In this document: positions 15,700 through 36,726 of the stretch, piece by piece
Layout: each line of letters opens with the position of its first letter
How positions within the stretch are numbered: position 1 is the first letter of the stretch
Assembly: GCA_049968235.1 (NCBI GenBank)
Contig: JBMFRC010000001.1
Coordinates: 224,001 to 288,000, forward strand
DNA: 64,000 bases
DNA from: Candidatus Hydrogenedens sp.
Lineage (GTDB): Bacteria; Hydrogenedentota; Hydrogenedentia; Hydrogenedentales; Hydrogenedentaceae
Reading direction: 5' to 3'
Notes under the pieces: model-generated
What the model saw: only the letters and a program-made list of their open reading frames with translations
Database searches by the model: none
Told to the model about the DNA's origin: nothing
Position numbers and translations under genes: made by a program

Positions 15700-15800
15700 A
15701 TTAAATAAACGAATTTTACGCCCAGGCGAACGGCGCCTTTTATGGTTTTGTCGCTCCCTTGTGGTTTATTCCACTTAAATCGCCAGTTGCGACACATAAA
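15700..15800 (-). promoter_or_regulatory. GC-rich structured 5' leader of gcvT, candidate (single-aptamer?) glycine riboswitch
   Basis: The minus-strand RNA is …CAACUGGCGAUUUAAGUGGAAUAAACCACAAGGGAGCGACAAAACCAUAAAAGGCGCCGUUCGCCUGGGCGUAAAAUUCG…. It contains a P2-like hairpin GUGG…CCAC, then AAGGGAGC (compare CGAAGGAGCAA), then GGCGCCG…CGCC, then CUGGGCGUAAAA (compare CUCAGGCAAAAGGAC). This GC-rich island lies 80-160 nt upstream of a gcv operon in an otherwise AT-rich spacer. Confidence 0.35.
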
Positions 15801-19838: not shown

Positions 19839-20585
19839 ATGGGTTTCAATCGTATTGCTAAGTTTTATCCACTGCTATTTGATGAAAAGGCTCGATTAAC
19901 ACGAGAAGGCCCCTTGTTGCTGGAAATCCTAAAACAATATAGACGACCTGTACATGTGTTAGACCTTGCCTGTGGTTCGGGTGTACATTCTCGATTCTTT
20001 GCAGAACAGGGAGCAGATGTTATCGGGGTAGATGTTAGTCCTGACATGTTAAAATATGCAAAAAAGCAAAGCCAATCGGAAAGTATTCATTATATTGTAG
20101 GCAATATTGTTAAATTACCCCTTATCGGGCATTGGGATTTTATTCTATGTCTTGGCAATTCTCTATGTCTGTTGCCTGACAGGAAACATGTCTATGATTT
20201 CTTTGCTCAAATAAAAAACTTACTATCATCTCATGGAACATTTATTTTACAAATTCTCAATTACAGTCATCCCGATATAAAAGAAATACAAACAAAATGT
20301 ATGCAAAAAGAAATAGATGGTAAAAAAGTAACTATTATCAAGACATTAACCCCGGACAATGATGTAGTTTTCCTTTCTATTAATTATTTTGCCCAGGTTC
20401 AAGGGAAGTATGAATTATTCAGTGAATCAAATATATTATTAAAACTTTCATTATCCGAATTGTTAAATTACTCTAATGAAGTTGGTTTATCCGTTCTATC
20501 TACTTATGGAGATTTTCAAAAATCAACTTTTAATTCCACAACGAGTAAGGATGTAATAATTATTTTTTCCAGGAAATTCTATTGA
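19839..20585 (+). CDS. Class I SAM-dependent methyltransferase
   Basis: Motif I VLDLACGSGVHSRFF, post-I DVIGVDVSPDM, and a conserved acidic/aromatic region. The start may instead be GTG 19812. Confidence 0.7.
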   Translation: MGFNRIAKFYPLLFDEKARLTREGPLLLEILKQYRRPVHVLDLACGSGVHSRFFAEQGADVIGVDVSPDMLKYAKKQSQSESIHYIVGNIVKLPLIGHWDFILCLGNSLCLLPDRKHVYDFFAQIKNLLSSHGTFILQILNYSHPDIKEIQTKCMQKEIDGKKVTIIKTLTPDNDVVFLSINYFAQVQGKYELFSESNILLKLSLSELLNYSNEVGLSVLSTYGDFQKSTFNSTTSKDVIIIFSRKFY

Positions 20586-20667
20586 AAAAGTGAATTTATT
20601 TTAATTGTTTTTGATATACTACTTTCTTTAATAAATAGCAAAGTGAAGTAATAAAAGGAAATAGCCT

Positions 20668-22575
20668 ATGCGTAAGGTAGAAAAAAACTGGAAAAGTATC
20701 AAAATACCTGAACAAATAAAGAACATTTTATTGAAATCTAAAAAAGTCTCCATTGCAACAACTATCAATGAATTAATTGAAATAGCCTGTGGCTCCTCAG
20801 AACCTGACGCCCAATTTAAGGTTGAATATGATGTGCCGGGAATGGGTAAATATCATGAAGTTACAGTAAATCGGGTTCGGAATGGTGTCTGTGTCAATTA
20901 CACGGAACCGTATATGAGAAGAAGGGACCCCGATTGCACATTTATAGGAGATAAATATCCAACAGATAAACCTTACTTTGAAGATGTATTTGGCTATCCT
21001 TTTGAAAAACTTGCTAAAGAGACTTTCGTCTGGCTACAAAATCAGGAATTAATAATGTTTGGTTTTATGGCAGGTGGAGATGCATTAGGGAAACATGCTC
21101 TTGCAATTGCCCCTGCTAATGCTGGTTTCTTTGCTTTAGGTCTGGCACTACTGCAAGGAATTGTATCGTGGGATGTGTTAACTACTAAATTTGACCCGAA
21201 ATTAATTATGTATGTCGCACCTGTGTTCCGTCATACTCATTTTAATAAAAAACAGGTTGTCGTGCATCGCCGGGGGAAAGAATATTACGAAATTTTTTCC
21301 TATAACCTGTATCCGGGTCCCAGTGCAAAGAAAGGAGTTTATGGGTATCTACTTCATTTAGGAGAACAGGAAGGCTGGTTGACAACACATAGTTCCACGG
21401 TTCAGGTAATTACCCCCTATGATAATGTGGTAACAATTTTGCATGAAGGTGCCAGTGGCGGTGGAAAAAGTGAAATGCTTGAATCAATTCATCGTGAAGA
21501 AGATGGACGTATTTTAATAGGCACAAATATCCAAACAGAAGAGCAGATTTTATTAGAATTGCCTCGTGCCTGTGCTTTGAGACCCGTTAGCGATGATATG
21601 GCACTTTGCCACCCCTCTCTCCAGCGAGGAGATGGCAAAATTACGGTAACTGATGCAGAAAAGGGTTGGTTTATTCGTGTAAACCATATAGGTAGATATG
21701 GAATGGACCTCACCTTTGAAGCACTTACCGCGCAACCCCCAGAACCTTTGTTATTCCTGAATATTAATGCGGTCCCGAATTCTCGTGCTATGATATGGGA
21801 ACATACAGAAGATGAACCCGGCATACCCTGTCCCAACCCCCGAGTAATCGTCCCTCGTCGTATTATGCCAAATGTGGTTAATAAACCTGTTCCTGTTGAT
21901 ATTCGTAGTTTTGGTGTACGAACACCTCCATGCACAAAAGAAAAACCTACTTATGGCATTATTGGAATGTTTCACCTTTTGCCATCTGCATTAGGCTGGT
22001 TATGGCGTTTAGTAGCACCACGTGGACACGATAATCCATCCATTATCAAGACAGAAGGAATGACTTCCGAAGGTGTTGGCTCCTACTGGCCCTTTGCTAC
22101 AGGAAAGTATGTAAACCATGCCAATCTACTCCTTGAACAGATATTAGCCAGTCCTCGTGTTTATCATATCCTTTGCCCTAACCAACATATAGGAGCATGG
22201 AAAGTGGGATTTGCACCCCAATGGTTAGCACGCGAATATCTCGCACGAAGAGGTATTGCCCGTTTAAAACCCAGTCAATTGGTCACTTCTCGCTGTCCCT
22301 TATTAGGACATACATTAAAAATGGTAAGAATTGAAGGAGAAGTTTTACCAAACTTTTTGTTTGAAACTTACCTCCAGCCGGAAGTAGGTGAAGAGGCTTA
22401 TGACGAAGGTGCCGAAATTCTTTACAACTTTTTTCATAAGGAATTAAAGAAATATCTTATTCCAGATTTACACCCATTAGGGAAGACAATTATCGAATGC
22501 TTTTTGGATCGCGGTTTCCTTAACGATTATATGACACTTTTGCCGACACCCTATATTGATACATCCCAGGATTAA
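20668..22575 (+). CDS. Conserved hypothetical protein with Walker-A-like loop (resembles DUF4914 family)
   Basis: 635 aa. HEGASGGGKSEM, a P-loop of HprK/PEPCK-like style, lies mid-protein. The DUF4914 assignment is from memory and not certain. Confidence 0.45.
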   Translation: MRKVEKNWKSIKIPEQIKNILLKSKKVSIATTINELIEIACGSSEPDAQFKVEYDVPGMGKYHEVTVNRVRNGVCVNYTEPYMRRRDPDCTFIGDKYPTDKPYFEDVFGYPFEKLAKETFVWLQNQELIMFGFMAGGDALGKHALAIAPANAGFFALGLALLQGIVSWDVLTTKFDPKLIMYVAPVFRHTHFNKKQVVVHRRGKEYYEIFSYNLYPGPSAKKGVYGYLLHLGEQEGWLTTHSSTVQVITPYDNVVTILHEGASGGGKSEMLESIHREEDGRILIGTNIQTEEQILLELPRACALRPVSDDMALCHPSLQRGDGKITVTDAEKGWFIRVNHIGRYGMDLTFEALTAQPPEPLLFLNINAVPNSRAMIWEHTEDEPGIPCPNPRVIVPRRIMPNVVNKPVPVDIRSFGVRTPPCTKEKPTYGIIGMFHLLPSALGWLWRLVAPRGHDNPSIIKTEGMTSEGVGSYWPFATGKYVNHANLLLEQILASPRVYHILCPNQHIGAWKVGFAPQWLAREYLARRGIARLKPSQLVTSRCPLLGHTLKMVRIEGEVLPNFLFETYLQPEVGEEAYDEGAEILYNFFHKELKKYLIPDLHPLGKTIIECFLDRGFLNDYMTLLPTPYIDTSQD

Positions 22576-23266
22576 AATCTTTCAAACATAAATAACACTT
22601 CTAAAAAGCAATACTATCTGTAATTTGTAGCAGAAGTTAGATCTGAATGTACGAAAAGAAGGATAGTATAAACAAAGCAAATACATTCATCTATTTATAT
22701 ATGTGTTGGAATTCATATAATTTGTGAGTAAAAAATCTTGCATGCAAAAAAACATCAATAGTGAAAAAATATAATTTATTCACAAGACACGAAGTTCGTA
22801 TAATACTCACAAAGATTATTTATAACAAGTGAAAAAATTTTATATTTTTATATACTACACATTTCTAATTGCTCTATGGGTTATTTTAATTTGTCTCTCC
22901 CTGGAAGTTGGGACACATATATGCCTAAAATTAGCAAATTATGTATATAAACCTTATTTCGATATGCAAAATCGAAAAGTCTATCGAATGATAGACCCTC
23001 GAAGAGCAAAAGAAACAATTTTCCTCAAAAGTTAATATATCACCAAAAAATGAACTTATAATCCCTGAAATAATAAATAATGCATACACACAAACGGGCA
23101 ATTTTTCTTATTCATGTAAAAAAGAATATGAGTTAGCTTTAGATGGAATAATGGAAGCCCAATTTGATAAAAATGGGAATCTAATTGAATCCTGTGGTGA
23201 ACCTCTGATTGAAAGGGCTGTTATTGACCTGCTTCAAGGCACTCCCTTCGGTTATTATGACCCTGA

Positions 23267-23680
23267 TTGGGGTGTATTAAAAGAAAAATTAAAACATCCA
23301 CCCGAAGAACCTTTTTCCATGCGATTAAATATATGATGATTTACAATCTGCAATATAATATAGACATTAGACCTAACAATGATGGTTTTACTCTTCTTGC
23401 AAGATTAATAAAAGACGATTTCCCATACTCATTAAATCATCCTTCAACTCCCATAACGGACGAAACACAATGGCTTGTTCATTGGTATGCATACAAACCT
23501 AACTTCAAAGCACACCCGACAGCACCTTCCACAAACAATTTCGGTTTAAACCATTTCTGCGATGTATGTCATACCACTCGTCTGGGGATTGAAGAAAAAT
23601 CCAATATAATTGCCCAATATATCGCTCAATGGCTCGAAAGGAAAAACATTTTCCCCAAAAAATACATGGGAAATAATTAA
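23267..23680 (+). CDS. Hypothetical protein (low confidence ORF in AT-rich island)
   Basis: An open frame only, with no recognisable motifs. Confidence 0.2.
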   Translation: MGCIKRKIKTSTRRTFFHAIKYMMIYNLQYNIDIRPNNDGFTLLARLIKDDFPYSLNHPSTPITDETQWLVHWYAYKPNFKAHPTAPSTNNFGLNHFCDVCHTTRLGIEEKSNIIAQYIAQWLERKNIFPKKYMGNN

Positions 23681-23710
23681 CATTCAATACCTTGCCTCTT
23701 ACAACCCTTA

Positions 23711-25533
23711 TCAAGGTTTTATCATCGCAATACCTACCAGCGGTAATTCTGCAATATGGAATGTAAGGTATGTATTAGTATCGCTTAATTTTGTTATTTC
23801 ATAATTCACAATGTCCTGTTCCTTCTCAGGTGTGGATAGTAATACCTTACCGATAGAAGGATTAGAAACTTGAACAGAAATAGAAATATCTTGTGCAGGT
23901 ATTACCTTATCTTCATAGGAGGAAATGCGTTCAATATTTAAATTATAAAGTAGAACGAAAATAGCATCTGGTGATTCGCGTACTACACCCCGTACCACTC
24001 CATTCCCCGTTATTTTTAAAAATGGGAGAGGAAGATGTAAATATAATTCCTTTAGAAAGGAAGATTGACCTGCATCTATAAATACCTTATTACTGCTCTT
24101 ACACAGTTCAGATATTGATATGGAACACGAGGGTGGAATATATCCCGGTTCAGAGGCAAGTATGATATTTGCTTCCGAAAAATATTTTTCAAAATTACTT
24201 TCCGAGGCAACTATATAAAGAACATTCAATTGAGTTAGTCGTTTTGCTATATTTAATTCCTTGCAATCTTCATGTTTAATCCATTCTTCAAAGGGAAAAT
24301 ACAACAACACATCATATCTCTGTTTTGAAGTAATTATTGGGGGAGCATTCTTTTTAAGCCACTGCACAAAGGGGCGAATTACCTGAATCATTTTTCCGCG
24401 TTGAGATTCTTCCCTTGTAGGCCAGAGCATATAATTTGTATTTCGAGTAAAGCATTCGAATATCGCCAGATTTGTAAGATGGGGTGGAGTATGATAATCC
24501 CCATTCGCTATAGTTACAGATACTAACGGTTTCGGTCCGAAAATAGAATGTACCAAATCGTATACAAAACTACACTCTATCGTTTTTCCCCGTGAAGTGC
24601 AACGCGGAGTTGACCCCATATCCTCAATAACAACAAAATCCTGAGATTTGCTCATTTTTTATATATTATATGCATATCTATGACATTGAGAAAATATCAC
24701 TTCGGGAGTATTAAGACTATTATTTGCAGTAATCAGGGCTTTGGGATTTATCTCCCGTGCATAATTCTTTATCTCTAAGAGAAAATCACGAGCAATGGTG
24801 CAACGAAACTTTTTGAATTCAATAGGTTTCTTTTGTGCTAATTCTCTCAAGGCATGTAACGAGGTGTCTTCAACCTTTTCCCCTTCGGATTCAAGAAACT
24901 GTAAAAACTTCTGCATGCAATAAGGGCAATAACATCCTTGTTGATGAACCGTCGGATTATCAAAAAAATACCATCTAATCCAATTTCTAATGAGGTCTTT
25001 ACGAGATATTTTTCATATTTTCGCCAATCCGGATGGTTCATACACGCGGGGTGATACTCTCCTCCATACCAGGAACGAAGGGGTGCACCTTTCACATCTT
25101 GTTGAAGCCATTTTTCCGGTGGGCTCGAGAATTGTTGTTTAAATTCAGGTTGTCAATACCGGTCAAAGGTCTCTAAACCGACAATAGAAGTAGAACATAA
25201 ATAACCCAGGAGTATAGGAATGCCTAAAGATTTTGTATGCTGAACATATTCATGGACATCCCGTTTAGTGTTCTCCCATTGTTCAGCGGGAGGAATACCC
25301 ATATATCCACAGACTCCTAAACCTGTAGCATAGATAACCGATACCCCGCATTGATATGCAGGTTCCGCTTGCTTATCAAACTTATCCAGATGGTCAAACG
25401 CATGCAAAGCGAAAAAATCGCATGCTTCATCGGAGAAACAAGAACCATATGCTCCAAATATAAACAATATTATCAATAATCTAAGAGAATGAATATGGTC
25501 CATTTTATAAATCTTTTTAGTAAAAACCATCAT
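23711..25533 (-). pseudogene. Disrupted gene for a secreted protein (four consecutive ORFs 126+82+85+314 aa separated by stops/frameshift)
   Basis: The 25153..25533 ORF opens with a signal peptide (…LRLLIILFIFGAYGSCFSDEA). The ORFs 24847..25095, 24659..24916 and 23711..24655 follow head-to-tail on the same strand. The last two are in the same frame, separated only by a TAA. The first pair differ by a frame shift. Confidence 0.35.
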
Positions 25534-25647
25534 TTTTATTTTATAAAGATACTAACCTGTTTGATAATATCACATAACATTATAATAATGGTTTCCCCTC
25601 CTTTACATCATTTGAAAACGCATAAATCATAATAAATGAAGAACCAT

Positions 25648-26583
25648 TTATAAACCGGCTCTTTTCTTAAAATCGAATAGTTGAGGAGCATGAAATTCTG
25701 AAGAAAATTCTTGAATCCTTTTATTTGCTAAATTTACATAACTTTCGTTTATGTCATATCCGACATAATGTCGGGCAGTTCTTATTGCTGCAATTGCTGT
25801 CTGTCCACTTCCAATAAACGGGTCTAAAATAACTTCCCCTTCAAAGGTATAAAGTTGAATTAATCTGTAAGGTAGTTCTATAGGGAAAGGAGCGGGATGC
25901 CCCACCTTCGTTGCTTGTTCAGCAGAGAAAGACCAAACACTTTTTGTAAACTCGAGGAATTCTTCTTTTGAAATAGTATCTTTCCTATTTAGATTTCCTC
26001 TGCTGAATGTACCTTTGGAAAAAACCAGGATATACTCATGAATATCTCTAAGTGTCGGATTTTTTGCTGAAAGCCAACTTCCCCATGCAGTTGAAGGGCT
26101 ACCACTGGAATTTTTATTCCAAATAATTTCACCCCGCATTAAAAATCCCAAATCAAGCATATCTTCAATGATAAAAGTGTGTAATGGGATATATGGCTTT
26201 CTCCCAAGATTGGCAATATTAATACATACTCTACCTCCAGGAACCAATACCCTTTTAACTTCTTGCCATACCCTTTTTAAGAATTGTCTATATTCCCTTA
26301 AGGTAAGATTTTTGTCATATTCTTTACCAACATTATAGGGAGGAGAAGTAACCATCAAATGGATACTATTTTCTGGTAACTCCTCCATGTTTTCACTTGA
26401 TTTACAAAATATTTTATCTATAACTTCAATGGGAACGGAATTCTCAATATATTCAGATTTTTTTTCTTTAGGCAGTCCTTCATACAATTTACTTGCATAA
26501 AACGAAGTAGCATCATGATTTATTCTTCCGGGCGAACCGAAAGCACTTGTTTTTGTGCCATTTTTCCTTCGGTTAATTTCCAT
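25648..26583 (-). CDS. DNA methyltransferase, N4/N6 family, beta-class (SPPY motif, likely N4-cytosine or N6-adenine)
   Basis: Catalytic motif IV LMVTSPPYNV precedes the SAM motif I ILDPFIGSGQTAIAA, which is the beta-class order. Confidence 0.8.
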   Translation of the reverse strand: MEINRRKNGTKTSAFGSPGRINHDATSFYASKLYEGLPKEKKSEYIENSVPIEVIDKIFCKSSENMEELPENSIHLMVTSPPYNVGKEYDKNLTLREYRQFLKRVWQEVKRVLVPGGRVCINIANLGRKPYIPLHTFIIEDMLDLGFLMRGEIIWNKNSSGSPSTAWGSWLSAKNPTLRDIHEYILVFSKGTFSRGNLNRKDTISKEEFLEFTKSVWSFSAEQATKVGHPAPFPIELPYRLIQLYTFEGEVILDPFIGSGQTAIAAIRTARHYVGYDINESYVNLANKRIQEFSSEFHAPQLFDFKKRAGL

Positions 26584-26787
26584 CTATTCCTCCTTCCACA
26601 TGTCAATCCACCTTTTATATGAATTATACTTTATCGCTATCTTTTGCCAATGTATTTCAATCTTTTTGGTTTGTTTATGGTAAAGTAATTTTGACAGTGC
26701 CTCTTTAGAAAGTTCAACCCCTCTTGGATTAGTTCCAGGTTTCGGAAGTTTAATATAATTTTTTCTCCCCATTTCATCAAAAATCAT
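26584..26787 (-). CDS. Small ORF translationally coupled to the methyltransferase (possible 3' part of a split restriction enzyme or controller)
   Basis: Its TAG stop abuts the MTase ATG (…TAGATG…). The 67-aa product is basic. Confidence 0.3.
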   Translation of the reverse strand: MIFDEMGRKNYIKLPKPGTNPRGVELSKEALSKLLYHKQTKKIEIHWQKIAIKYNSYKRWIDMWKEE

Positions 26788-26798
26788 TCTTTGAACAC

Positions 26799-27215
26799 TT
26801 AATGGAATATAGTAAAACCACCTTCAGCATTCCAATTAATTTGAACAAGTAGCATATCGCAGTAAGGATAATATTTGTTAAGGAATTCTTTTGCTTTCTC
26901 AGAATCAACTGTCCATACAAGTTTAACTCCTCCTAAATTCTTTCCTGTAATCGTTTTCATAGATATCGGCTCACCAAACAATTTGACATCTACTTCTGGC
27001 TCAGTAACAGGAATTTCAGTCTCTACATTATTCTCCCCAAATTTATAAATAAGTAAAGCCACTATTATTTTTTCTCTAACCGAGCCAACCTCCATCCCAA
27101 TTTTACCCGCTCTTGAACTTTCCATATCTGCAATTTGAAATAAGTGAGGTAATCTTTTCTTTATCTTTTCTACAAGTATTTTATCTTCAAAAAGTTTTAA
27201 TAATTGTTCTGACAT
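26799..27215 (-). CDS. Hypothetical protein, candidate restriction endonuclease (N-terminal part?)
   Basis: 138 aa, directly upstream and co-directional with the MTase. It contains an E…D-x-K-like stretch (TEPEVDVKLFGEPISMK). It is in a different frame from the following 67-aa ORF, separated by an 11-nt gap. Confidence 0.3.
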   Translation of the reverse strand: MSEQLLKLFEDKILVEKIKKRLPHLFQIADMESSRAGKIGMEVGSVREKIIVALLIYKFGENNVETEIPVTEPEVDVKLFGEPISMKTITGKNLGGVKLVWTVDSEKAKEFLNKYYPYCDMLLVQINWNAEGGFTIFH

Positions 27216-27584
27216 ATCATGCCTTTGAATATTTAATATAAATAAAAAGATTTATCAAATCCGCCTTAATAAAATCATAATTGAATATTAGTTAAAATTT
27301 AATTCTTTCAACTATAACTATAATACGACTTTATTTTATCTTTATTATATTATAAATATAAGATTTTTTTGTCTAATTTTACATATCTATATCTTTACTG
27401 TATTTGTATAATTCCATTTTCCTATCTATCCCTTAATTTACTTTGAAATACAAAAATGACGATGTTTATTAATTCGTTTTTATTTTTCTGTCCGTTTGGG
27501 AATTAATTATTTATATCTTTTCTTTGACTGGTTGCAATCTATGACCCGGCGGATTGGGTATAATTTTGAAGGTATTGTGCCTTT

Positions 27585-29042
27585 TTAGCCTTTTTCTATA
27601 CGATGGATTTCTTCTAACTGTTTTTGTATCTTCATCTCCGCTTTTTGTGTTTCTATAATAGGGTCGCAGATAGAATGCAGGTAATCATTAAGTTCGTGGA
27701 CAACAGATGGGGCATTAACCTTACTGTCTTTTATCAAATTGTTAAGTTCTTCCGTGTCCTCATCTAAATTGAACAATTGATGAGGTGCATCCGAGTTCCA
27801 GATAAATTTCCATCCACCTTTACGAACCATAAAACTACTACCGCGTGTCCCATGCCCATGATATTCTGCAAATACGAAACGGTCTGGATTCTCTTCCTGT
27901 AATTTTTGTAAAGCGGTTCCTTTCCAATTTTTTGGTCGTTGCCGTTTCGTAGCATGGAAGAACTCCGCCTGTGCATCCAAAGTGGTTATTGGTGTTCGGA
28001 TGCGTCGTCCCTTTTCAAATCCGGGTCCACAGGCAAGCAATGGTACGCGGGCAGAGTCTTCAAACATGGAGCATTTCCACCACATACCAAATTTGCCTAA
28101 CATCTCTCCATGGTCAGATGTGTATATAAATATCGTATTCTTATTTAGTCCTGTTTGTTCCAGTGTGTCTAAAATCTTTCCTATCATCGTATCTACAAAA
28201 CTGACACAGCCATAATATCCCTGTCTCAATCTTTTTACATCTTCTCCCTGAATTTGGTCTGTTTCGAAATGATTTCGCAAATCAACCGCATAGGGATGTT
28301 GTGCGGAAGGCTGGTCTGGTCCATACTGTGGAATATCGCCCTTCCCCTCATACATTCCCCAGAAGTTCGGCTCCGTAAAATGAGGGAAATGTGGTGCAAC
28401 AACATTGACCCATAGAACAAATGGTTTATCTAATTGTGTTCCTTTCGTTTTAAGCCAATCTACCGCAGTATCGACCATTAACTGGTCATGACGATGTGCT
28501 TTCTCTCGTGGTCCCCAACCTTTGGCTCGTTCCTGCCCAGTCCCTTTGCGGATACATAACGGTTTTCGCTGAATAAAAGTATCCCCGGGGGTTCCACGAT
28601 TCCAACCATAATAAACCTCATTAAATCCCATTTCTTCTATCTTTCGATACACATCTGCCTTGCCAATATATACCGTATGCACTCCTTGTTCCGCCAGAAT
28701 AGAACCATAATTAGGGAAATTATCCAGAAATAATGTGCAATTGCTATAACACTGCGTTTCATGATTGTATAATCCACTTATCACTGAACTTCGACTTGGG
28801 AGACATAATGGCGATGGGCAATATACATTCTCAAAAACAACACCATTTTTTGCTATTCGTTCCATATTCGGAGTTTGCACAAAAGGATGTCCATATACCG
28901 ATGTATATCGTGGATTATGTTCATCTGACATCAGCATAACCACATTATATTCCTTATGCTCCGTCTCGCAGAACGGAACTTTTGACAATAACAAACTTGT
29001 CGCAATTGTTCCCTGTAAAAATTCCCTTCGATTCATTGACAT
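27585..29042 (-). CDS. Tat-exported sulfatase (Cys-type, formylglycine-dependent)
   Basis: Twin-arginine signal MSMNRREFLQGTIATSLLL. Sulfatase signature C-L-P-S-R-S (SPLCLPSRSSVISG). Metal-binding region TSDHGEMLG. Confidence 0.85.
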   Translation of the reverse strand: MSMNRREFLQGTIATSLLLSKVPFCETEHKEYNVVMLMSDEHNPRYTSVYGHPFVQTPNMERIAKNGVVFENVYCPSPLCLPSRSSVISGLYNHETQCYSNCTLFLDNFPNYGSILAEQGVHTVYIGKADVYRKIEEMGFNEVYYGWNRGTPGDTFIQRKPLCIRKGTGQERAKGWGPREKAHRHDQLMVDTAVDWLKTKGTQLDKPFVLWVNVVAPHFPHFTEPNFWGMYEGKGDIPQYGPDQPSAQHPYAVDLRNHFETDQIQGEDVKRLRQGYYGCVSFVDTMIGKILDTLEQTGLNKNTIFIYTSDHGEMLGKFGMWWKCSMFEDSARVPLLACGPGFEKGRRIRTPITTLDAQAEFFHATKRQRPKNWKGTALQKLQEENPDRFVFAEYHGHGTRGSSFMVRKGGWKFIWNSDAPHQLFNLDEDTEELNNLIKDSKVNAPSVVHELNDYLHSICDPIIETQKAEMKIQKQLEEIHRIEKG

Positions 29043-29139
29043 AACGGATTCCTTTCAATAGGACAACTCACAATTACTATTTTTGCAACCATTTTGCTAT
29101 TATAATAAAAGCATCTAAAAAAGAAAAGCGAGTACTCCC

Positions 29140-29532
29140 ATGCTTTGCCCAAATTGTAAAAAACAAATACTTCTTATCATGGAATACAATCAGATTGAAC
29201 TGGATTTTTGTCCGGAATGTTTAGGTGTCTGGCTCGATGCAGAAGAATTGCAATGGATATTAGGTGCCAATTTTGACGAACAAAGTTTATTCACAACATC
29301 TACAATTAACGAAGTAAAGAAAAAATGTCCCCGTTGCAGAAGCAATATGCATAAAGTTTTCCTTCCCGAAAATAATCAGGTCATTTACGATACCTGCCCC
29401 AATCAACATGGTTTCTGGTTTGACCGTGGCGAATTAGAAATACTCATTCATAGCCTTTCCGAATTTCCCGGTACACATTCCTTTCTTCAATGGCTCACTG
29501 AAGTTTTTGCCTACTCCAAAAAGGAAAAATAA
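29140..29532 (+). CDS. Double zinc-ribbon protein (zf-TFIIB/YfgJ-like)
   Basis: Two repeats of CPxC…(17 aa)…CPxC…W(L/F)D…EL (MLCPNCKK…CPECLGVWLDAEEL and CPRCRS…CPNQHGFWFDRGEL). Confidence 0.6.
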   Translation: MLCPNCKKQILLIMEYNQIELDFCPECLGVWLDAEELQWILGANFDEQSLFTTSTINEVKKKCPRCRSNMHKVFLPENNQVIYDTCPNQHGFWFDRGELEILIHSLSEFPGTHSFLQWLTEVFAYSKKEK

Positions 29533-29789
29533 TCTGATTCCTTTGAGTAAAACAACAAAAGAAATCTTCTTGTAAAATTAAAATAACTGCCTCTTCCCTA
29601 TCTCCATCATTTTAATTCTAATCCTATTCATCCTGTTACTTATTTTTATCCATCTTAACGAAGTTTTGCACACTGAATATCAAGATAAAATTTGTGTATA
29701 AAGAAAACCCGTTTTACACATTGTTTTTTAATAAAAATAAGAAACGATTTGCATGGAAAACTATAGATTTTTTGTAACTTTTCCCCTAT

Positions 29790-29866
29790 TTATCCACAGA
29801 TTATCCACAGGTTTTCAAAAGCATTATCCACGATATTCTGAACAATTTTTCCACATTTTATTCACC
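29790..29866 (+). promoter_or_regulatory. Cluster of 4-5 same-orientation DnaA boxes
   Basis: TTATCCACA at 29790-29798 and 29801-29809 (both perfect). TTATCCACg at 29824-29832. TTtTCCACA at 29847-29855. Weak TTATtCACc at 29858-29866. Confidence 0.55.
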
Positions 29867-29871
29867 TAATA

Positions 29872-29887
29872 TTACTATATATTGTAT
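29872..29887 (+). promoter_or_regulatory. Possible NrdR box
   Basis: ttaCtAtATaTtGtat matches the acaCwAtATaTwGtgt palindrome core at 12/12. It lies between the DnaA boxes and the -35 element. Confidence 0.3.
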
Positions 29888-29906
29888 ATTGGGAATAAAA
29901 TTCTAC

Positions 29907-29935
29907 TTGACATTGTGTCCTGTTTGTTATAAAAT
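29907..29935 (+). promoter_or_regulatory. Sigma-70-type promoter for nrdD (TTGACA-17-TAAAAT)
   Basis: cTTGACAttgtgtcctgtttgttaTAAAATag. Perfect -35 hexamer, 17-nt spacer, 5/6 -10 hexamer. About 165 nt upstream of the nrdD ATG. Confidence 0.5.
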
Positions 29936-30098
29936 AGTTTTATCTTTTTTGTTTTCTATGAAAATTTAATCAAACAGTAGTTAGCCCTCCTAAATCTTAC
30001 CCGAAGGCAAAAAATAACCTTATTTTTTGGGGATATTAGATTTGGGTGATAAAATTAAAGTTTAAATGAATAAAAGTTTAATTTAGGGAGCGTAGGCT

Positions 30099-32237
30099 AT
30101 GCAGAATTGGGAAATAAGTTCGGCTGAGATTTTTACAGACTTGGTTCCGTTCACGCATGTATTGAAGAGAGATGGGCGAAAGGTTCCTTTCTCTGCAGGA
30201 AAAATAACCCAAGCCATCTTAAAGGCAGGAAAAGCCACCGGTGAATTTGGGATAGATATTGCCCGTCGTTTAACTCTTCGTGTATTGGCACTTTTGCAAA
30301 CTATGCCATTAGAAGGACATCCCACTGTTGAAGAAATTCAGGACGCGGTGGAAGAGATTTTATTAATGTCACCATTTAAGAAAACCGCTAAGGCATATAT
30401 TCTTTATCGTGACCAGCATGCTCGCATCCGTGAGATGGTCAATAAAGCGGATGTAGATTTGATTGACCGCTATCTTGAAAAGATGGACTGGAAAGTTCAG
30501 GAAAACAGTAATATGGCATATTCCCTCCAGGGTTTGAACAATTATATTTCCAGTGAAATTAGCAAGGTATATTGGCTTAACAAAATCTATACACCAGAAG
30601 TACGAGAAGCACATCGTTCGGGAGACTTGCATCTACATGACCTTGGTTTGCTATCGGTATATTGTGTAGGCTGGGATTTGCAAGATTTGCTATTAAATGG
30701 CTTTCAGGGAGCACCGGGAAAAGCAGAGAGCAAGCCTGCCAAACATTTCCATACAGCATTAGGGCAGGTTGTTAATTTCTTTTATACCTTACAGGGTGAA
30801 GCGGCAGGGGCACAGGCTTTTAGCAACTTTGACACTCTTTTAGCACCTTTTATCCGTTATGATGGTTTAAATTATCGTGAGGTAAAGCAAGCACTACAAG
30901 AGTTTATTTTTAATTTGAATGTAGCAACACGGGTTGGTTTCCAAACTCCATTTACGAATGTTACATTGGACTTACAACCACCTGCCAATTTAGCCAATCA
31001 GCCTGTTATCATTGGTGGGGAATATCAAGATGCCACATATGGTGAGTTCGCAAACGAAATGAAACTATTTAATTCGGCGTTTCTTGAGGTTCTTTCCGAA
31101 GGAGATGCAAAAGGACGAGTATTTAGTTTTCCAATACCTACTTACAATATTACTAAAGATTTTAACTGGGATGACCCGGACCTTGTCCGTTTATGGGAAG
31201 TAACGGCAAAATATGGCATTCCGTATTTTGCCAATTTTATCCATTCCGATATGTCCCCTTGTGATGCCCGTTCGATGTGTTGTCGTTTACGGCTGGATTT
31301 GCGTGCATTAGAACGAAGAGGCGGTGGGCTTTTCGGGGCAAATCCATTAACAGGGTCCATCGGTGTTGTTACCATCAATATGCCTCGAATTGGCTACTTA
31401 TCTGCGAATGAGGATGAATTTTTTGAACGATTTGATAATTTGATAAATATTGCCCGCACCAGTCTCGAAACGAAGCGGAAGGTGCTTGAACAATTAACAG
31501 ATAACGATTTATATCCATACACGAAATTCTACCTGCGTAATGTATATCAACGATATAACCATTACTGGAACAATCATTTCTCTACTATTGGTCTGATTGG
31601 TATGAATGAAGCATGCCTGAATCTCCTTGGAAAGGATATTGGCACTTCAGAAGGCTTAGAATTTGCAATCCGAGTACTGTACCATGCCCGAAACCGGTTA
31701 AGAGAATTCCAACAGGAAACAGGTAATTTGTATAACCTTGAAGCAACTCCTGCTGAAGGGACCAGTTATCGTCTTGCTCGTCTGGATTATGAACGCTATC
31801 CGGATGCCCATTTTGCGAATACGGAACAACTCCGAAATGGTAGTGTCCCATTTTATACCAATTCTACACAATTACCTGTAAATTATACCGATGATATTTT
31901 CAAAGTGCTTGAGTTACAGGACCCACTACAGACACAATATACCGGTGGTACGGTTCTGCACATCTTTTTAGGGGAATCGGTAGCCAATCCTAATGCGGTC
32001 AAGGCATTTGTAAAAAAGGTATGTGAAGGGTATAAACTTCCTTATTTTACTTTAAGCCCCAGTTTTACAGTGTGCCCACAGGATGGATACATTCATGGCG
32101 AATTTCCATCATGTCCCAAATGTGGAAAAGAAACAGAGGTTTATTCGCGTGTTGTGGGTTACTTGCGACCTATAAGTCAATGGAATGAAGGGAAACGGGC
32201 AGAATTTGAACTGCGAGTAAGATATAAAATTGATTAA
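30099..32237 (+). CDS. nrdD: Anaerobic ribonucleoside-triphosphate reductase
   Basis: N-terminal ATP-cone-like region. C-terminal Zn site CPKCGK. Glycyl-radical motif (…SRVVGYLRP…). 712 aa. Confidence 0.92.
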   Translation: MQNWEISSAEIFTDLVPFTHVLKRDGRKVPFSAGKITQAILKAGKATGEFGIDIARRLTLRVLALLQTMPLEGHPTVEEIQDAVEEILLMSPFKKTAKAYILYRDQHARIREMVNKADVDLIDRYLEKMDWKVQENSNMAYSLQGLNNYISSEISKVYWLNKIYTPEVREAHRSGDLHLHDLGLLSVYCVGWDLQDLLLNGFQGAPGKAESKPAKHFHTALGQVVNFFYTLQGEAAGAQAFSNFDTLLAPFIRYDGLNYREVKQALQEFIFNLNVATRVGFQTPFTNVTLDLQPPANLANQPVIIGGEYQDATYGEFANEMKLFNSAFLEVLSEGDAKGRVFSFPIPTYNITKDFNWDDPDLVRLWEVTAKYGIPYFANFIHSDMSPCDARSMCCRLRLDLRALERRGGGLFGANPLTGSIGVVTINMPRIGYLSANEDEFFERFDNLINIARTSLETKRKVLEQLTDNDLYPYTKFYLRNVYQRYNHYWNNHFSTIGLIGMNEACLNLLGKDIGTSEGLEFAIRVLYHARNRLREFQQETGNLYNLEATPAEGTSYRLARLDYERYPDAHFANTEQLRNGSVPFYTNSTQLPVNYTDDIFKVLELQDPLQTQYTGGTVLHIFLGESVANPNAVKAFVKKVCEGYKLPYFTLSPSFTVCPQDGYIHGEFPSCPKCGKETEVYSRVVGYLRPISQWNEGKRAEFELRVRYKID

Positions 32238-32275
32238 GACCCTTAATTGTTAACCTGATGTAGAATATTAACCTT

Positions 32276-32887
32276 ATGAAAATTGGTGGTTTTCAGCCAT
32301 TTTCCTTATCCGATTTTCCCAATTGTGTATCTGCAATTGTTTTTACTCAAGGTTGTAATTTCCGTTGCCCTTTTTGTCATAACCCATCATTAGTACTGCC
32401 TGAGTTATTCTTACCGCCTATTCCTGAAGAAACGCTGATTGCATTTTTAAATGAACGAAAAGGAAAGTTAGATGGAGTTGTAATTACAGGTGGAGAACCC
32501 ACAATACAATCAGATTTGATGAAGTTCGTGAGTGAAATTAAGGGATTGGGTTATAAAGTAAAACTTGATACAAACGGTTCAAATCCCCAACTGATAGAGG
32601 AATTAATTCACAATAATCTCATTGACTATTTCGCTATGGACATTAAAGCACCGTGGCACAAATATACAGATTTAACAGGAGTAGATGCTAATATCGATTT
32701 GATAAAGAAAACTATGATGATATTATTACATAGTTCTATCCCTTGTGATTTTCGTTTAACCTATGCAAAACCTTTGTTGAACGAAAACGATATTCAAGAA
32801 GTGCAATCCTACCTCCCCCAAAATTGCTCTTTAATCATTCAAAATTTTATCAAGGAAAGAGCATTAAATCCCACTATTTTTGAGTAA
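32276..32887 (+). CDS. nrdG: Anaerobic ribonucleotide reductase activating protein (radical SAM)
   Basis: CxxxCxxC cluster (GCNFRCPFCHN). Glycine-rich SAM motif VVITGGEP. Sits immediately downstream of nrdD. Confidence 0.85.
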   Translation: MKIGGFQPFSLSDFPNCVSAIVFTQGCNFRCPFCHNPSLVLPELFLPPIPEETLIAFLNERKGKLDGVVITGGEPTIQSDLMKFVSEIKGLGYKVKLDTNGSNPQLIEELIHNNLIDYFAMDIKAPWHKYTDLTGVDANIDLIKKTMMILLHSSIPCDFRLTYAKPLLNENDIQEVQSYLPQNCSLIIQNFIKERALNPTIFE

Positions 32888-32950
32888 AAGTTCTTTCATG
32901 GATTCCTTGCTTTTTCCCCTCGTTTCTCCCATCCATTGCATCCTTTTTCG

Positions 32951-33967
32951 TTAGGCAATCCAATCTTTGCGGAAAAACTCAAACATTTTATCTGTAAACC
33001 CGGGATAAACCTCATGGGCAAAATCGGGGTATATAACTGCTTCTTTTTTCGACTTTATTTTGTTAAATGCAGAAAACTGTGTGGAAGGTGGACAAATCTG
33101 GTCCATTAGTCCAATTGCCATGAGGACTTCTCCCTGAATACGTTCTGCTAAAAATTGACAATCAATATATCCCAACTTTGTGAAGATTTCATTTTCTCTT
33201 TCATGTCTTGGGTCGAATAGACGAAAGTAGGTTCGAAGTTCCTCATAGGCTTCTAAAGCAAGGTCCATTTCCCAGACCCGTTTATAATCACACAAGAACG
33301 GACACATAGGTGCCAACTTTTTTATCTGCGGATGAAGCCCTGCACATGCCAGAGTTAATGCACCACCCTGTGACATTCCATATGCACCAAGGCGTTGCTC
33401 ATCTACCTCTTCAAAACCACTAACAATATTTACTAATTGCACTGTGTCCAGAAAAATATGCCGGTAAAGCAAATTATCAGGCTCATCATCCAGACCACGG
33501 ATAATATGCCCTTTCAATGTATTTCCGACAACACTACCCGTTTCTGTAGATTTTCCTCCCTGTCCGCGAACATCCATGGCACACACACAGAAGCCTTCTC
33601 CCACAAAACCTAATTTTTCATACCAATCACCTGAGTTTCCACCGTAACCGTGAAATCGAAACAAGGTAGGACAGGGCTTATTCCTTTTTCTGGGTCTAAG
33701 GTATTGAGCATGTATTCTTGCACCACGGACACCTGTAAAATACAAATCAAAACAATCCGCAACCTCACTTTGAAATGGAGATGGAATTCGCTTCACCTTC
33801 GGGTCAATAGACTCTAATTCCAATAATGCCTTTCTCCAATATTCATCAAAATCAGCAGGTCTTGGATTTCTACCCTGATATTTCCACAATTCCTCTAAAG
33901 GAAGTTCAAATACAAGCATACAACAACTCCTTCTATTATCTTTGTCATGTTCCGGATAAATGGTCAA
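32951..33967 (-). CDS. Acetyl xylan esterase / cephalosporin-C deacetylase family (CE7) hydrolase
   Basis: AXE1-family N-terminal region. Nucleophile elbow GMSQGG. A C-terminal His-containing block. Confidence 0.75.
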   Translation of the reverse strand: MTIYPEHDKDNRRSCCMLVFELPLEELWKYQGRNPRPADFDEYWRKALLELESIDPKVKRIPSPFQSEVADCFDLYFTGVRGARIHAQYLRPRKRNKPCPTLFRFHGYGGNSGDWYEKLGFVGEGFCVCAMDVRGQGGKSTETGSVVGNTLKGHIIRGLDDEPDNLLYRHIFLDTVQLVNIVSGFEEVDEQRLGAYGMSQGGALTLACAGLHPQIKKLAPMCPFLCDYKRVWEMDLALEAYEELRTYFRLFDPRHERENEIFTKLGYIDCQFLAERIQGEVLMAIGLMDQICPPSTQFSAFNKIKSKKEAVIYPDFAHEVYPGFTDKMFEFFRKDWIA

Positions 33968-34535
33968 TAAGTATTTTTATGCCAATTATAAACAATAATA
34001 TTGCACCGATAATTTCCATGCTTTTGCCAAATTTCTTACCGACATAACTGCCTAATTGCATTCCTATCAATGTCAAAAATCCTGCGGTAATACCTATCCA
34101 GAATGAAGGAAACCATATTGAGACACCTATAAAAGCAAAACTTAATCCGACAGCATACGCATCAATACTGGTTGCTATAGATAGCATAACTAATGATAAA
34201 CCTCGTGTTGGGTCATTCTTTTTTGGCTCTGTGGCTATTTGTTTTTCCTCCTCTTTAATATCCGATATGGATTGATATACAATTTTCCCACCAATCGCCC
34301 AGAGAATAAAAAAGGCTATCCAGTGGTCATAAGCCAGAAACCATTGTCCCACAAGATTCCCTGTATACCATCCCAGTACAGGCATCAATGCCTGAAATAA
34401 GCCAAAATGAAAAGACAAACGAAAGGTTTGTCGCGGTTGCACATTTTTTAGCAGAGCACTGATACTAATGGACACTGCAAACGCATCCATTGCAAGAGCC
34501 ACAGCAATTCCTGCAAGGACATATGGGTCTAACAT
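33945..34535 (-). CDS. mntP: Manganese efflux pump MntP
   Basis: N-terminal repeat LAMDAFAVSI…, second repeat SIDAYAVG…, six TM segments, about 190 aa. Confidence 0.8.
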   Translation of the reverse strand: MLDPYVLAGIAVALAMDAFAVSISISALLKNVQPRQTFRLSFHFGLFQALMPVLGWYTGNLVGQWFLAYDHWIAFFILWAIGGKIVYQSISDIKEEEKQIATEPKKNDPTRGLSLVMLSIATSIDAYAVGLSFAFIGVSIWFPSFWIGITAGFLTLIGMQLGSYVGKKFGKSMEIIGAILLFIIGIKILIDHLSGT

Positions 34536-34762
34536 TTACTTTTCTCTTCATAGAAAGATTTTTATTACATTAACAGAATGGCAATAATAATAACCTATTT
34601 ATAATCCTATCTGACAAGTCCACCATATCCGATGGGGTAGAGAAGTCCAGACGATTTTGAGAAGTCAGACCTGCCTAATCCCTTATCTTTAAGTTTGTTT
34701 TTAGATAAAAGATAAAATACAATAGAGGTATATAAATAATAATAACTGAAAAGGAATATTTT

Positions 34763-36346: not shown

Positions 36347-36726
36347 ATAAACAACAAAAATAACTCGGTAAATTCATCAAATATTAACATATTCTTAGTG
36401 TTCTCTGGACAACATTACCATTTTGCACAGAGAACAGAAAGGTGGGGAAATCGTAACGATTCGCATAATGCCTGTAAACAATGAGAATATTTCATCGTGA
36501 TATTGAATTAGTTTCTCCTTTCCCGCCTGTTCCTTTTTATTGGTAAGCAACCGAATCAGGGGGTAAATACATTTGAGGCATAGTAAGGTGTAGAGTAGTT
36601 ATAATATAGTAATAAAAAGATACTTTGATACTTTCGTTATTCAATTATTTATTTGATGCGTTGTATATAAAATAAAGACACGAATATTGAATAGAATAAG
36701 TGGTTTGAAAATAAGGAAAAGTTGTT

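What the first reader, a model, noticed from the sequence alone, without database searches (positions are those of the whole stretch)
25648..27215. Beta-class DNA methyltransferase translationally coupled (TAGATG) to small ORFs: an R-M system, possibly with a frameshifted endonuclease
The MTase has the SPPY motif before the FxGxG motif. It is preceded on the same strand by a 138-aa ORF and a 67-aa ORF. Those two are in different frames with only an 11-nt gap, and the second ORF's stop overlaps the MTase start codon. Together they would make a type-II endonuclease of about 205 aa. A split gene would indicate a decaying or phase-variable R-M system. The genes lie in a conspicuously AT-rich stretch (about 22.6-27.6 kb) that also holds a multiply disrupted gene, which suggests horizontally acquired DNA.
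Basis: partly seen in the sequence, partly recalled or inferred. Interest (0 to 1): 0.5.

Follow-up and report, generated by a model that had tools for sequence, protein, structure and literature searches.

The report
ThaI-type restriction-modification cassette, nuclease gene broken
This is an ordinary two-gene bacterial restriction-modification cassette of the well-studied ThaI (CGCG) family, in which a one-base deletion has broken the DNA-cutting gene while the protective methylase gene stays intact.

Summary
On the minus strand, the 138-aa ORF (26799-27215) and the 67-aa ORF (26584-26787) are the two halves of one ThaI-family type II restriction endonuclease (Pfam PF15514). Restoring one T in the run at 26814-26817 gives a 210-aa protein. 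It is 70-74% identical over its full length to more than 100 intact 210-aa homologues and 59% identical to crystallised ThaI (PDB 3NDH, cuts CG/CG).

The 311-aa gene directly downstream (25648-26583) is an intact beta-class SPPY methyltransferase. It is 69-84% identical to the methylases that follow intact ThaI homologues in 80 of 80 genomes.

The source is a Candidatus Hydrogenedens MAG. Related genomes lack the pair between the same sulfatase and GHL15 genes, so it is a ~2 kb insertion. A second MAG has the same deletion. A third has a TAC>TAA stop at the next codon, but that call lies near a contig end.

Phase variation and programmed frameshifting are not supported. Losing R while keeping M is common in this family (about 29% of 66 loci). 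This is a degraded member of a known system, of low interest.

The parts
26584..27215 (-). ThaI-family type II restriction endonuclease pseudogene (R); 210 codons once one T is restored
   Evidence: The repaired product matches PF15514 positions 1-203 of 203 at 330.6 bits. It is 70-74% identical at 100% coverage to more than 100 intact 210-aa proteins. Against PDB 3NDH ThaI it gives E 2e-89 and 59% identity. PADLOC classes it as REase_II at 7e-92.
26799..27215 (-). N-terminal R fragment (138-aa ORF; the last 4 residues, TIFH, are out of frame)
   Evidence: It matches PF15514 positions 1-128, E 5e-64. It carries the equivalents of ThaI Met47, Glu48, Glu54, Asp82, Ser91, Lys93, Lys104 and Trp107, which here are M41, E42, E48, D76, S85, K87, K98 and W101.
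26814..26817 (-). Site of the lesion: a T4 run where intact homologues need TTT-TAC/T (Phe134-Tyr135); a 1-nt deletion
   Evidence: GGFYYIPL is invariant in the family. One homologue has exactly GGTGGTTTTTACTAT. L001 shares the deletion, and L002 reads T5 followed by TAA.
26584..26813 (-). C-terminal R fragment in the -1 frame; the listed 67-aa ORF starts at ATG 26787, but homology runs from Tyr135
   Evidence: It matches PF15514 positions 139-203, E 2e-25. It contains N163 and R165, the equivalents of ThaI Asn169 and Arg171 that make major-groove base contacts, and the C-terminal helices that are domain-swapped in the ThaI dimer.
25648..26583 (-). Intact beta-class DNA methyltransferase (M), predicted to make N4-methylcytosine at CGCG
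   Evidence: It matches PF01555 at E 2e-48. SPPY is at residues 80-83 and FIGSG at 256-260. PADLOC classes it as MTase_II at 3e-138 over its full length. It is 69-84% identical to MTases downstream of intact ThaI homologues. Only 1 of 126 highly conserved columns is changed. The protein is identical in three MAGs.
26581..26594 (-). R-stop/M-start junction: AGGAGG (26589-26594), 5 nt, TAG (26584-26586) abutting ATG (26581-26583)
   Evidence: This is read directly from the sequence. In 70 of 80 homologous loci the M start lies within -11 to +4 nt of the R stop, and the last R codons (W-x-E-D/E, TGGAGGGAGGAT) form the Shine-Dalgarno sequence.
27216..27584 (-). 369-bp, 23% GC intergenic region upstream of R; part of the lineage-specific insert, presumed to hold the promoter
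   Evidence: GC content is. The region has no counterpart in syntenic relatives. Only weak consensus promoter matches were found, no more than chance would give.
25534..25647 (-). 114-bp, 25% GC spacer between the M stop and the GHL15 pseudogene start; the other end of the insert
23711..25533 (-). Neighbouring GHL15-like glycoside-hydrolase pseudogene (context only, not part of the R-M system)
   Evidence: It is 79% identical to intact 584-609-aa genes in relatives. It carries TGG>TGA at 25150-25152 and AAA>TAA at 24656-24658, both shared with L001. A T8>T7 change at about 24961 occurs only in the window.

Best explanation
A ~2 kb ThaI-type type IIP restriction-modification cassette (R then M, same strand) was inserted between a sulfatase gene and a GHL15-like gene in one lineage of Candidatus Hydrogenedens.

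In its intact form, the 210-aa R protein would be a homodimeric PD-(D/E)XK endonuclease that cuts CG/CG. The M protein would be a beta-class methylase that protects host CGCG sites by N4-cytosine methylation.

In this genome a single T has been lost from a T5 run at codons 134-135 of R. Translation therefore ends after 138 residues. That fragment keeps the catalytic residues but lacks the major-groove recognition residues (equivalents of Asn169 and Arg171) and the domain-swapped C-terminal dimerisation helices, so it should be inactive.

M is intact and has its own strong Shine-Dalgarno sequence. The locus therefore now acts as a solitary methylase and no longer as a restriction barrier.

Shown here: the homology, the exact lesion, the conserved R-M architecture, the insertion, and the integrity of M. 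Inferred: CGCG specificity, the m4C chemistry, the inactivity of the R fragment, and continued expression of M.
For: - **Identity of R.** The two fragments cover PF15514 positions 1-128 and 139-203. The repaired protein covers positions 1-203 at 330 bits. It is 70-74% identical over 100% of its length to more than 100 intact 210-aa proteins and 59% identical to ThaI 3NDH, E 2e-89.
- **Functional residues.** All catalytic, intercalating and base-contacting residues described for ThaI in PMC3025569 are conserved. N163 and R165 and the C-terminal helices lie downstream of the frameshift.
- **The lesion.** The GGFYYIPL motif is invariant, and a single restored T regenerates it.
- **Independent confirmation.** A separately assembled MAG contig (L001) differs from the window at 11 SNPs in 16.4 kb and has the same deletion. 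The rest of the window is packed with long unbroken ORFs of up to 1822 aa, so indel errors are not rampant.
- **M is the cognate partner and is intact.** It is 69-84% identical to the MTase downstream of R in 80 of 80 genomes. Only 1 of 126 conserved columns is changed. Its best solved relatives include N4-cytosine MTases. M.ThaI is reported to be an m4C CGCG enzyme.
- **Insertion.** Relatives have the sulfatase, then 60 nt, then GHL15 (L016), or a different 320-aa ORF in the same slot (L012).
- **R decay is common in this family.** Of 66 loci found through M, 14 have a disrupted or remnant R and 5 have none.
- **Relaxed constraint on R.** The ratio of R divergence to M divergence is 1.39 here, against 1.10 +/- 0.12 in homologues.
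- **No long history of CGCG restriction.** CGCG is not avoided in the window (O/E 0.89), while seven other palindromes are strongly avoided.
Against: - No reads or coverage are available. A homopolymer miscall reproduced in two assemblies cannot be excluded absolutely.
- Specificity and methylation type are inferred from 59% identity to ThaI and from conserved contact residues. They were not measured.
- R has only one lesion, and only 2 of 90 highly conserved columns are changed. Inactivation must therefore be recent, or low-level read-through is conceivable.
- The cassette contains none of the six palindromes the host avoids, whereas 75 homologous cassettes have a mean of 10.3 and a minimum of 1. 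This fits either long residence or a donor with the same avoidance profile. It sits uneasily with a very recent arrival.
Confidence: 0.86

Rival explanations
1. The frameshift is an assembly or sequencing artefact. The organism actually carries an intact, working ThaI-type R-M system.
For: The difference is a single base in a homopolymer. The window also differs from both related MAG contigs by one base in another T run, T7 versus T8 at 24961. Apart from the frameshift, R looks fully functional. The source is a metagenome-assembled genome.
Against: The same deletion is present in a second, independently assembled MAG contig that differs at 11 SNPs. T4 versus T5 is a short run. Another genome from the same accession batch has SPAdes-style contig names, which hints at short-read data. 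Long ORFs are unbroken across the remaining 60 kb of the window. The neighbouring gene is broken by nonsense substitutions, which are not homopolymer errors.
Confidence: 0.08
2. The split is a regulatory device. Either programmed -1 ribosomal frameshifting or transcriptional slippage on the T run, or phase variation, keeps R at a low or switchable level.
For: The shift needed is -1, and tRNA-Phe could re-pair on T-TTT. The two frames overlap for only about 25 nt. The C-terminal frame is still fully open and conserved up to the M start. A sister MAG differs in tract length, T5.
Against: There is no X XXY YYZ heptamer in the zero frame (T GGT TTT A). T4/T5 is far shorter than tracts known to slip or phase-vary. 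None of the 80 genomic homologues or the 120 database homologues is split at this site. The T5 allele in L002 has a TAA stop at the very next codon, which frameshifting cannot rescue. Simple decay of R is frequent in this family.
Confidence: 0.04
3. Recurrent, selected inactivation. The common ancestor of the three MAGs had an active R. It was knocked out independently at least twice, by delta-T in the window and L001 and by TAC>TAA in L002, because an active CGCG nuclease is costly in a genome that does not avoid CGCG.
For: Two different lesions lie within 2 nt of each other in genomes about 99.9% identical. The most parsimonious ancestor is the intact GGTGGTTTTTACTAT. The window has 52 CGCG sites in 64 kb, O/E 0.89. 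This refines the best explanation and does not contradict it.
Against: The L002 allele lies 31-33 nt from a contig end. In that MAG the assembly breaks on both sides of the N-terminal part of R, so the call is unreliable. There are only three genomes. No intact allele from this lineage was found.
Confidence: 0.3

Closest known systems
ThaI restriction endonuclease of Thermoplasma acidophilum (PDB 3NDH; Pfam PF15514), with its partner M.ThaI (m4C, CGCG)
   Same: The two proteins align over their full length at 59% identity. The residues equivalent to ThaI's catalytic Glu54, Asp82 and Lys93, the intercalating Met47, and the base-contacting Glu48, Lys104, Trp107, Asn169 and Arg171 are all conserved. 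The length is the same (210 versus 216 aa). A beta-class SPPY methylase follows as partner.
   Different: The gene is interrupted by a 1-nt deletion at codons 134-135. The host is a mesophile-type bacterial candidate phylum (Hydrogenedens) and not a thermoacidophilic archaeon. No activity was measured.
Intact ThaI-family R-M cassettes annotated in MAGs and isolates (for example Thermodesulfovibrio sp. N1, Candidatus Methanoliparum, Elusimicrobia UBA5214)
   Same: The gene order R then M is the same. The R stop abuts the M start, and the Shine-Dalgarno sequence is built from the last R codons. R is 70-74% identical and M 78-81% identical.
   Different: Those R genes are uninterrupted. The Hydrogenedens R is relatively more diverged than its M: dR/dM is 1.39 against 1.10.
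Solitary (orphan) methylases left behind by R-M decay, including ThaI-family loci with only a 3' remnant of R (L128, L132)
   Same: M is intact while R is non-functional or partial. The 3' end of R is retained directly upstream of M.
   Different: Here R is still full-length apart from one base, which is an earlier stage of decay. Those remnants have lost the first ~130-150 codons.

Membership tests
ThaI family type II restriction endonuclease (PF15514, PD-(D/E)XK) | Sequence match to the family profile above the curated cut-off, over the whole profile | tested here: met
   The fragments score 216.2 and 90.2 bits. The repaired protein scores 330.6 bits over positions 1-203 of 203, against a cut-off of 25.
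ThaI family type II restriction endonuclease (PF15514, PD-(D/E)XK) | Catalytic residues Glu54, Asp82 and Lys93 (ThaI numbering), with Ser91 in place of the acidic residue | tested here: met
   The equivalents are E48, D76, S85 and K87, and they are invariant in the alignment. The residue roles come from PMC3025569.
ThaI family type II restriction endonuclease (PF15514, PD-(D/E)XK) | CGCG-recognition apparatus: intercalating Met47 and base contacts by Glu48, Lys104, Trp107, Asn169 and Arg171 | tested here: met
N163 and R165 lie after the frameshift.
ThaI family type II restriction endonuclease (PF15514, PD-(D/E)XK) | A single uninterrupted reading frame of about 210 codons | tested here: not met
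   A 1-nt deletion at 26814-26817 splits the gene into 138-aa and 67-aa ORFs. It belongs to the family as a pseudogene.
ThaI family type II restriction endonuclease (PF15514, PD-(D/E)XK) | Blunt cleavage of CG/CG | not testable with these tools
   This needs an enzyme assay.
Beta-class N4-cytosine DNA methyltransferase, M.ThaI-like (PF01555) | PF01555 match above the cut-off, with the permuted motif order: catalytic motif IV (SPPY) before the AdoMet motif I (FxGxG) | tested here: met
   The match is 165.6 bits against a cut-off of 26.7. SPPY is at residues 80-83 and FIGSG at 256-260.
Beta-class N4-cytosine DNA methyltransferase, M.ThaI-like (PF01555) | Orthology with the methylases that partner intact ThaI-family endonucleases | tested here: met
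   It is 69-84% identical to the MTase downstream of R in 80 of 80 loci and 78-81% identical to four aligned examples. The M.ThaI sequence itself was not compared.
Beta-class N4-cytosine DNA methyltransferase, M.ThaI-like (PF01555) | Produces N4-methylcytosine at CGCG | not testable with these tools
   This is inferred from the Ser-Pro-Pro-Tyr motif, from N4C enzymes among the best PDB matches, and from published M.ThaI data. It needs a methylome.
Functional type II R-M defence system | Both an intact endonuclease and an intact cognate methylase | tested here: not met
   M is intact. R is frameshifted.
Phase-variable R-M system (simple-sequence-repeat switching) | A long homopolymer or short tandem repeat in the coding sequence, with close relatives differing only in repeat number | tested here: not met
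   The tract is T4, and T5 when intact. The only T5 relative also has a nonsense codon. No tandem repeat is present in the locus.
Programmed -1 ribosomal frameshift gene | A slippery X XXY YYZ heptamer in the zero frame, and conservation of the split among homologues | tested here: not met
   The sequence is T GGT TTT A. None of the 80 genomic homologues or the 120 database homologues is split there.

The most novel reading that the evidence does not exclude
The same codon (Tyr135) of the endonuclease gene was knocked out twice independently in sister Hydrogenedens populations that are about 99.9% identical: by a 1-nt deletion in two MAGs and by TAC>TAA in a third. This would capture, in natural populations, rapid and repeated selection against a newly acquired CGCG nuclease in a genome that has not purged CGCG sites. 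Meanwhile the methylase, and the 3' end of R that drives its translation, are preserved.
Probability: 0.2. Interest if true: 0.35.

Novelty: new member of a known kind. Interest (0 to 1): 0.15.

Why it matters
The finding matters little beyond correct annotation. It tells an annotator three things:
- The two small ORFs should be merged into one ThaI-family pseudogene.
- The methylase is probably a solitary m4C CGCG enzyme.
- This Hydrogenedens lineage should carry m4C at CGCG sites but should not restrict unmethylated CGCG DNA.

As one data point it illustrates the usual route from an R-M system to an orphan methylase. It also shows how mobile and how strongly conserved this cassette is across bacteria and archaea. 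The strong avoidance of seven other palindromic tetramers in the host genome is the more striking biology. It suggests heavy long-term restriction pressure in this candidate phylum.

Tried and rejected
- **Search for an intact allele from the same lineage.** All three attempts failed, so within-lineage polymorphism could not be assessed beyond the three NCBI MAGs.
  - An exact-pattern scan of JGI metagenomes across the lesion found nothing.
  - An exact look-up of the 74-aa C-terminal product found nothing.
  - A methylase-anchored metagenome scan found nothing closer than 84% identity.
- **Mobile-element signatures around the insert.** Direct and inverted repeats in 25300-27700 were only short AT-rich chance matches. 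The two intergenic arms match nothing in any fetched locus or elsewhere in the window.
- **Promoter and terminator scan.** It gave 12 promoter-like sites against 11.5 expected, so it is uninformative. The best site (26650-26623, 11 of 12 matches), inside the 3' end of R, is noted only as a possible M promoter.
- **NCBIfam.** It has no model that matches R. For M it gave only sub-threshold adenine-methylase models, so it did not help with specificity.
- **Structure prediction of the joined protein.** This was judged unnecessary, because the protein is 59% identical to a solved structure.
- **Controller (C) protein.** No ORF or family hit was found upstream of R.
- **Stop-codon reassignment as a cause of the in-frame stops.** This was rejected. 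The stops replace Trp, Lys and Tyr with different stop codons (TGA, TAA, TAA), and all other genes in the window use standard stops.
Full report
**What is in the sequence**

On the minus strand there are three ORFs:
- a 138-aa ORF at 26799-27215;
- a 67-aa ORF at 26584-26787, after an 11-nt gap and in another frame;
- a 311-aa ORF at 25648-26583.

The stop of the 67-aa ORF (TAG, 26586-26584) directly abuts the ATG of the 311-aa ORF. An AGGAGG lies 5 nt upstream of that ATG.

**The methylase**

- The 311-aa protein matches Pfam PF01555 (N6_N4_Mtase) at 165.6 bits, E 2e-48.
- It matches a PADLOC type II MTase model over its full length, E 3e-138.
- SPPY lies at residues 80-83 and FIGSG at 256-260, which is the beta-class motif order.
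- Its best solved relatives are TTHA0409 (2ZIE), two chains named DNA cytosine-N4 methyltransferase, and M.PvuII.
- Against 71 orthologues, it differs at only 1 of 126 columns that are at least 97% conserved (K268R). Homologues differ at 0.76 on average. The gene looks intact.

**The endonuclease**

The 138-aa ORF matches Pfam PF15514 (restriction endonuclease ThaI) at profile positions 1-128 of 203, E 5e-64. The 67-aa ORF matches positions 139-203, E 2e-25.

Three-frame translation shows that both frames are open only across about 25 nt around GGTGGTTTTACTATATTCCATTAA. Adding one T to the T4 run at 26814-26817 gives GGT GGT TTT TAC TAT ATT CCA, which reads GGFYYIP, and a 210-aa protein. That protein has these matches:
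- It matches PF15514 over positions 1-203 at 330.6 bits.
- It is 70-74% identical at 100% coverage to more than 100 intact proteins, nearly all exactly 210 aa long. Several of them are named 'ThaI family type II restriction endonuclease' by NCBI.
- GGFYYIPL is invariant in the alignment.
- One homologue has exactly the predicted ancestral DNA, GGTGGTTTTTACTAT.
- Against the PDB it hits only ThaI (3NDH), E 2e-89 over residues 1-209, at 59% identity.

**Link to the ThaI structure**

The ThaI structure paper (PMC3025569) describes a PD-(D/E)XK homodimer that cuts CG/CG, with these features:
- catalytic residues Glu54, Asp82 and Lys93, plus Ser91;
- Met47 intercalating into the CG steps;
- base contacts from Glu48, Lys104, Trp107, Asn169 and Arg171;
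- the most extensive dimer contacts made by domain-swapped C-terminal helices.

The paper's numbering is offset by 6 from the window protein. The equivalents here are M41, E42, E48, D76, S85, K87, K98, W101, N163 and R165, and all are present.

The frameshift falls between W101 and N163. The 138-aa product therefore keeps the catalytic centre but loses two base-reading residues and the dimerisation helices. I infer that it is inactive. The same paper and a review (PMC11033074) state that ThaI's partner methylase makes m4C at CGCG. This is the basis for the predicted specificity and is an inference.

**Is the frameshift real?**

The exact methylase protein occurs on three NCBI MAG contigs, all named Candidatus Hydrogenedens sp..
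- **L001** (GCA_049969095.1) is 99.93% identical to window 20126-36583, with 11 substitutions and 1 indel. It has the same T4.
- **L002** (GCA_049971155.1) begins 30 nt upstream of the site. It reads GGTGGTTTTTAATAT, so the frame is intact but Tyr135 (TAC) has become TAA.
- **Assembly breaks in GCA_049971155.1.** The L002 call lies 31-33 nt from a contig end. Another contig of the same MAG (L100) ends 4 nt before the R start codon. That assembly therefore breaks on both sides of the N-terminal part of R, and I treat the L002 allele with caution.

Elsewhere the 64-kb window is packed with long unbroken ORFs of up to 1822 aa. Another genome of the same accession batch has SPAdes-style contig names. 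A reproduced homopolymer error is therefore unlikely, though it cannot be excluded without reads.

**Conserved architecture**

- Look-ups of three intact homologues show R (210-211 aa) immediately followed by a 307-314-aa PF01555 methylase in Thermodesulfovibrio, Candidatus Methanoliparum and metagenomic contigs.
- A scan of species-representative genomes found 330 with a ThaI relative.
- In the best 80 of these, which span many bacterial and archaeal phyla, a methylase 69-84% identical to the window's lies downstream on the same strand in 80 of 80.
- In 70 of 80 the M start is within -11 to +4 nt of the R stop. The last R codons (TGG AGG GAG GAT and similar) supply the Shine-Dalgarno sequence. 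The window's TAGATG junction is the family norm.

**Horizontal acquisition**

- Related Hydrogenedens contigs align to window 29508-27585 (zinc-ribbon gene and sulfatase, 82-84% identity) and to 25440-23671 (GHL15-like gene, 81-83% identity), but not to the 2.15 kb in between.
- In L016 the sulfatase and GHL15 genes are 60 nt apart. In L012-L015 the slot holds an unrelated 320-aa ORF on the other strand. The R-M pair with its two AT-rich arms (25534-27584) is therefore a lineage-specific insertion in a variable slot.
- The insert is 31.2% GC against 38.5% for the window, at the 1.4th percentile of equal-sized windows.
- Across 73 homologous loci the cassette is lower in GC than its flanks in 78% of cases.
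- No repeats or integrase-type signatures flank the insert.

**How old is the insertion and how old is the decay?**

- R has one lesion. It differs at only 2 of 90 highly conserved columns (E30D, I70V), which is within the homologue range of 0-3.
- However, its divergence from homologues relative to that of M is elevated. The ratio is 1.39, against 1.10 +/- 0.12, and only 1.4% of homologues reach it. This weakly suggests relaxed constraint on R.
- CGCG is not avoided in the window: 52 observed, 58 expected, O/E 0.89.
- In contrast, the seven most under-represented of all 256 tetramers are palindromes: GATC 0.05, CTAG 0.06, GGCC 0.10, AGCT 0.13, GCGC 0.22, ACGT 0.27 and GTAC 0.36. CGCG restriction has therefore left no mark on the host.
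- The cassette's coding DNA contains none of the six most-avoided palindromes. In 75 homologous cassettes the mean is 10.3 and the minimum is 1. The cassette is therefore adapted to this host's restriction regime, or came from a donor that shares it. I cannot decide between these.

**How ordinary is it?**

I took 80 metagenomic loci retrieved through the methylase alone, and so unbiased with respect to R. Of these, 66 had enough upstream sequence to judge:
- 47 had an intact R;
- 14 had a disrupted or partial R;
- 5 had no R.

Several hot-spring contigs keep only a 65-82-aa 3' remnant of R directly upstream of an intact M. Loss of R with retention of M is thus frequent in this family, and the window shows an early stage of it.

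**Rejected readings**

- **Phase variation.** The tract is only T4/T5, and there is no repeat in the locus.
- **Programmed frameshifting.** There is no X XXY YYZ heptamer in frame, no homologue is split, and the T5 relative carries a stop.
- **Stop-codon reassignment.** The neighbouring gene's in-frame stops replace Trp (TGG>TGA) and Lys (AAA>TAA), and other genes use normal stops.

**The neighbouring gene**

The neighbouring gene, at 23711-25533, is a GHL15-like gene that is intact (584-609 aa) in relatives. It carries two nonsense codons shared with L001, plus a T8>T7 frameshift found only in the window.

**Verdict**

This is a degraded member of the known ThaI R-M family in a Candidatus Hydrogenedens MAG. 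Interest is low.

Noticed in passing
window 1-64000: The seven most under-represented of all 256 tetramers are palindromes: GATC (10 observed, 198 expected, O/E 0.05), CTAG 0.06, GGCC 0.10, AGCT 0.13, GCGC 0.22, ACGT 0.27 and GTAC 0.36. CGCG (0.89) is not avoided. This looks like a strong restriction-avoidance signature for this Hydrogenedens genome.
   Followed up: partly
window 25648-27215: The R-M coding DNA contains none of the six most host-avoided palindromes. In 75 homologous cassettes from other organisms the mean is 10.3 and the minimum is 1. The acquired cassette is adapted to the host's avoidance profile, or came from a donor that shares it.
   Followed up: partly
window 23711-25533 (-): This GHL15-like glycoside-hydrolase gene is intact (584-609 aa) in related Hydrogenedens contigs but is a pseudogene here. 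It has TGG>TGA at 25150-25152 and AAA>TAA at 24656-24658, both shared with L001. It also has a T8>T7 frameshift near 24961 that is present only in the window.
   Followed up: yes
L012 9574-10536 (-), also L013-L015: In a sister Hydrogenedens lineage, the same sulfatase/GHL15 slot holds a different 320-aa ORF with no Pfam, NCBIfam or PADLOC match. The slot seems to be a variable insertion site.
   Followed up: partly
L019-L098, R/M junctions; window 26581-26600: Across the ThaI family, the last codons of R (Trp-x-Glu-Asp/Glu, TGGAGGGAGGAT) double as the Shine-Dalgarno sequence for M. M starts 0-2 nt after the R stop in 61 of 80 loci.
   Followed up: yes
L128 2801-2998; L132 1932-2180; similar in L105, L135, L147, L148, L149: Several hot-spring metagenome contigs keep only a 65-82-aa 3' remnant of the ThaI-family R gene directly upstream of an intact methylase. 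This suggests that the 3' end of R is retained because M expression depends on it.
   Followed up: partly
L002 1-33 and L100 end (window 26843 and 27219): In MAG GCA_049971155.1 the assembly breaks 4 nt before the R start and again 30 nt before the lesion. The N-terminal 376 nt of R are therefore on neither contig. This may reflect strain heterogeneity at this gene.
   Followed up: partly
window 15713-15800 (-): A ZMP/ZTP riboswitch (Rfam RF01750, 64.6 bits, full length) lies upstream of the ORF at 14554-15639.
   Followed up: no
window 22576-23710: This stretch is 31.6% GC. It has only small ORFs (61 aa at 23151-23336 and 115-137 aa ending at 23680, both on the plus strand) with no Pfam or PADLOC match. 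Both ORFs are also called in L001.
   Followed up: partly
window 3064-3304 and 62425-62494: There is a 102-nt tandem repeat (2.4 copies, 98% identical, proline-rich coding) inside the ORF at 2656-3399. There is also a 23-nt AT-rich tandem repeat (about 2.5 copies) in an intergenic region.
   Followed up: no
window 42001-43000: This is the lowest-GC kilobase of the window (29.0% GC), with a strong negative GC skew (-0.40). It has no ORF of 110 aa or more between 42428 and 43173. No Rfam or tRNA hit was found there.
   Followed up: no
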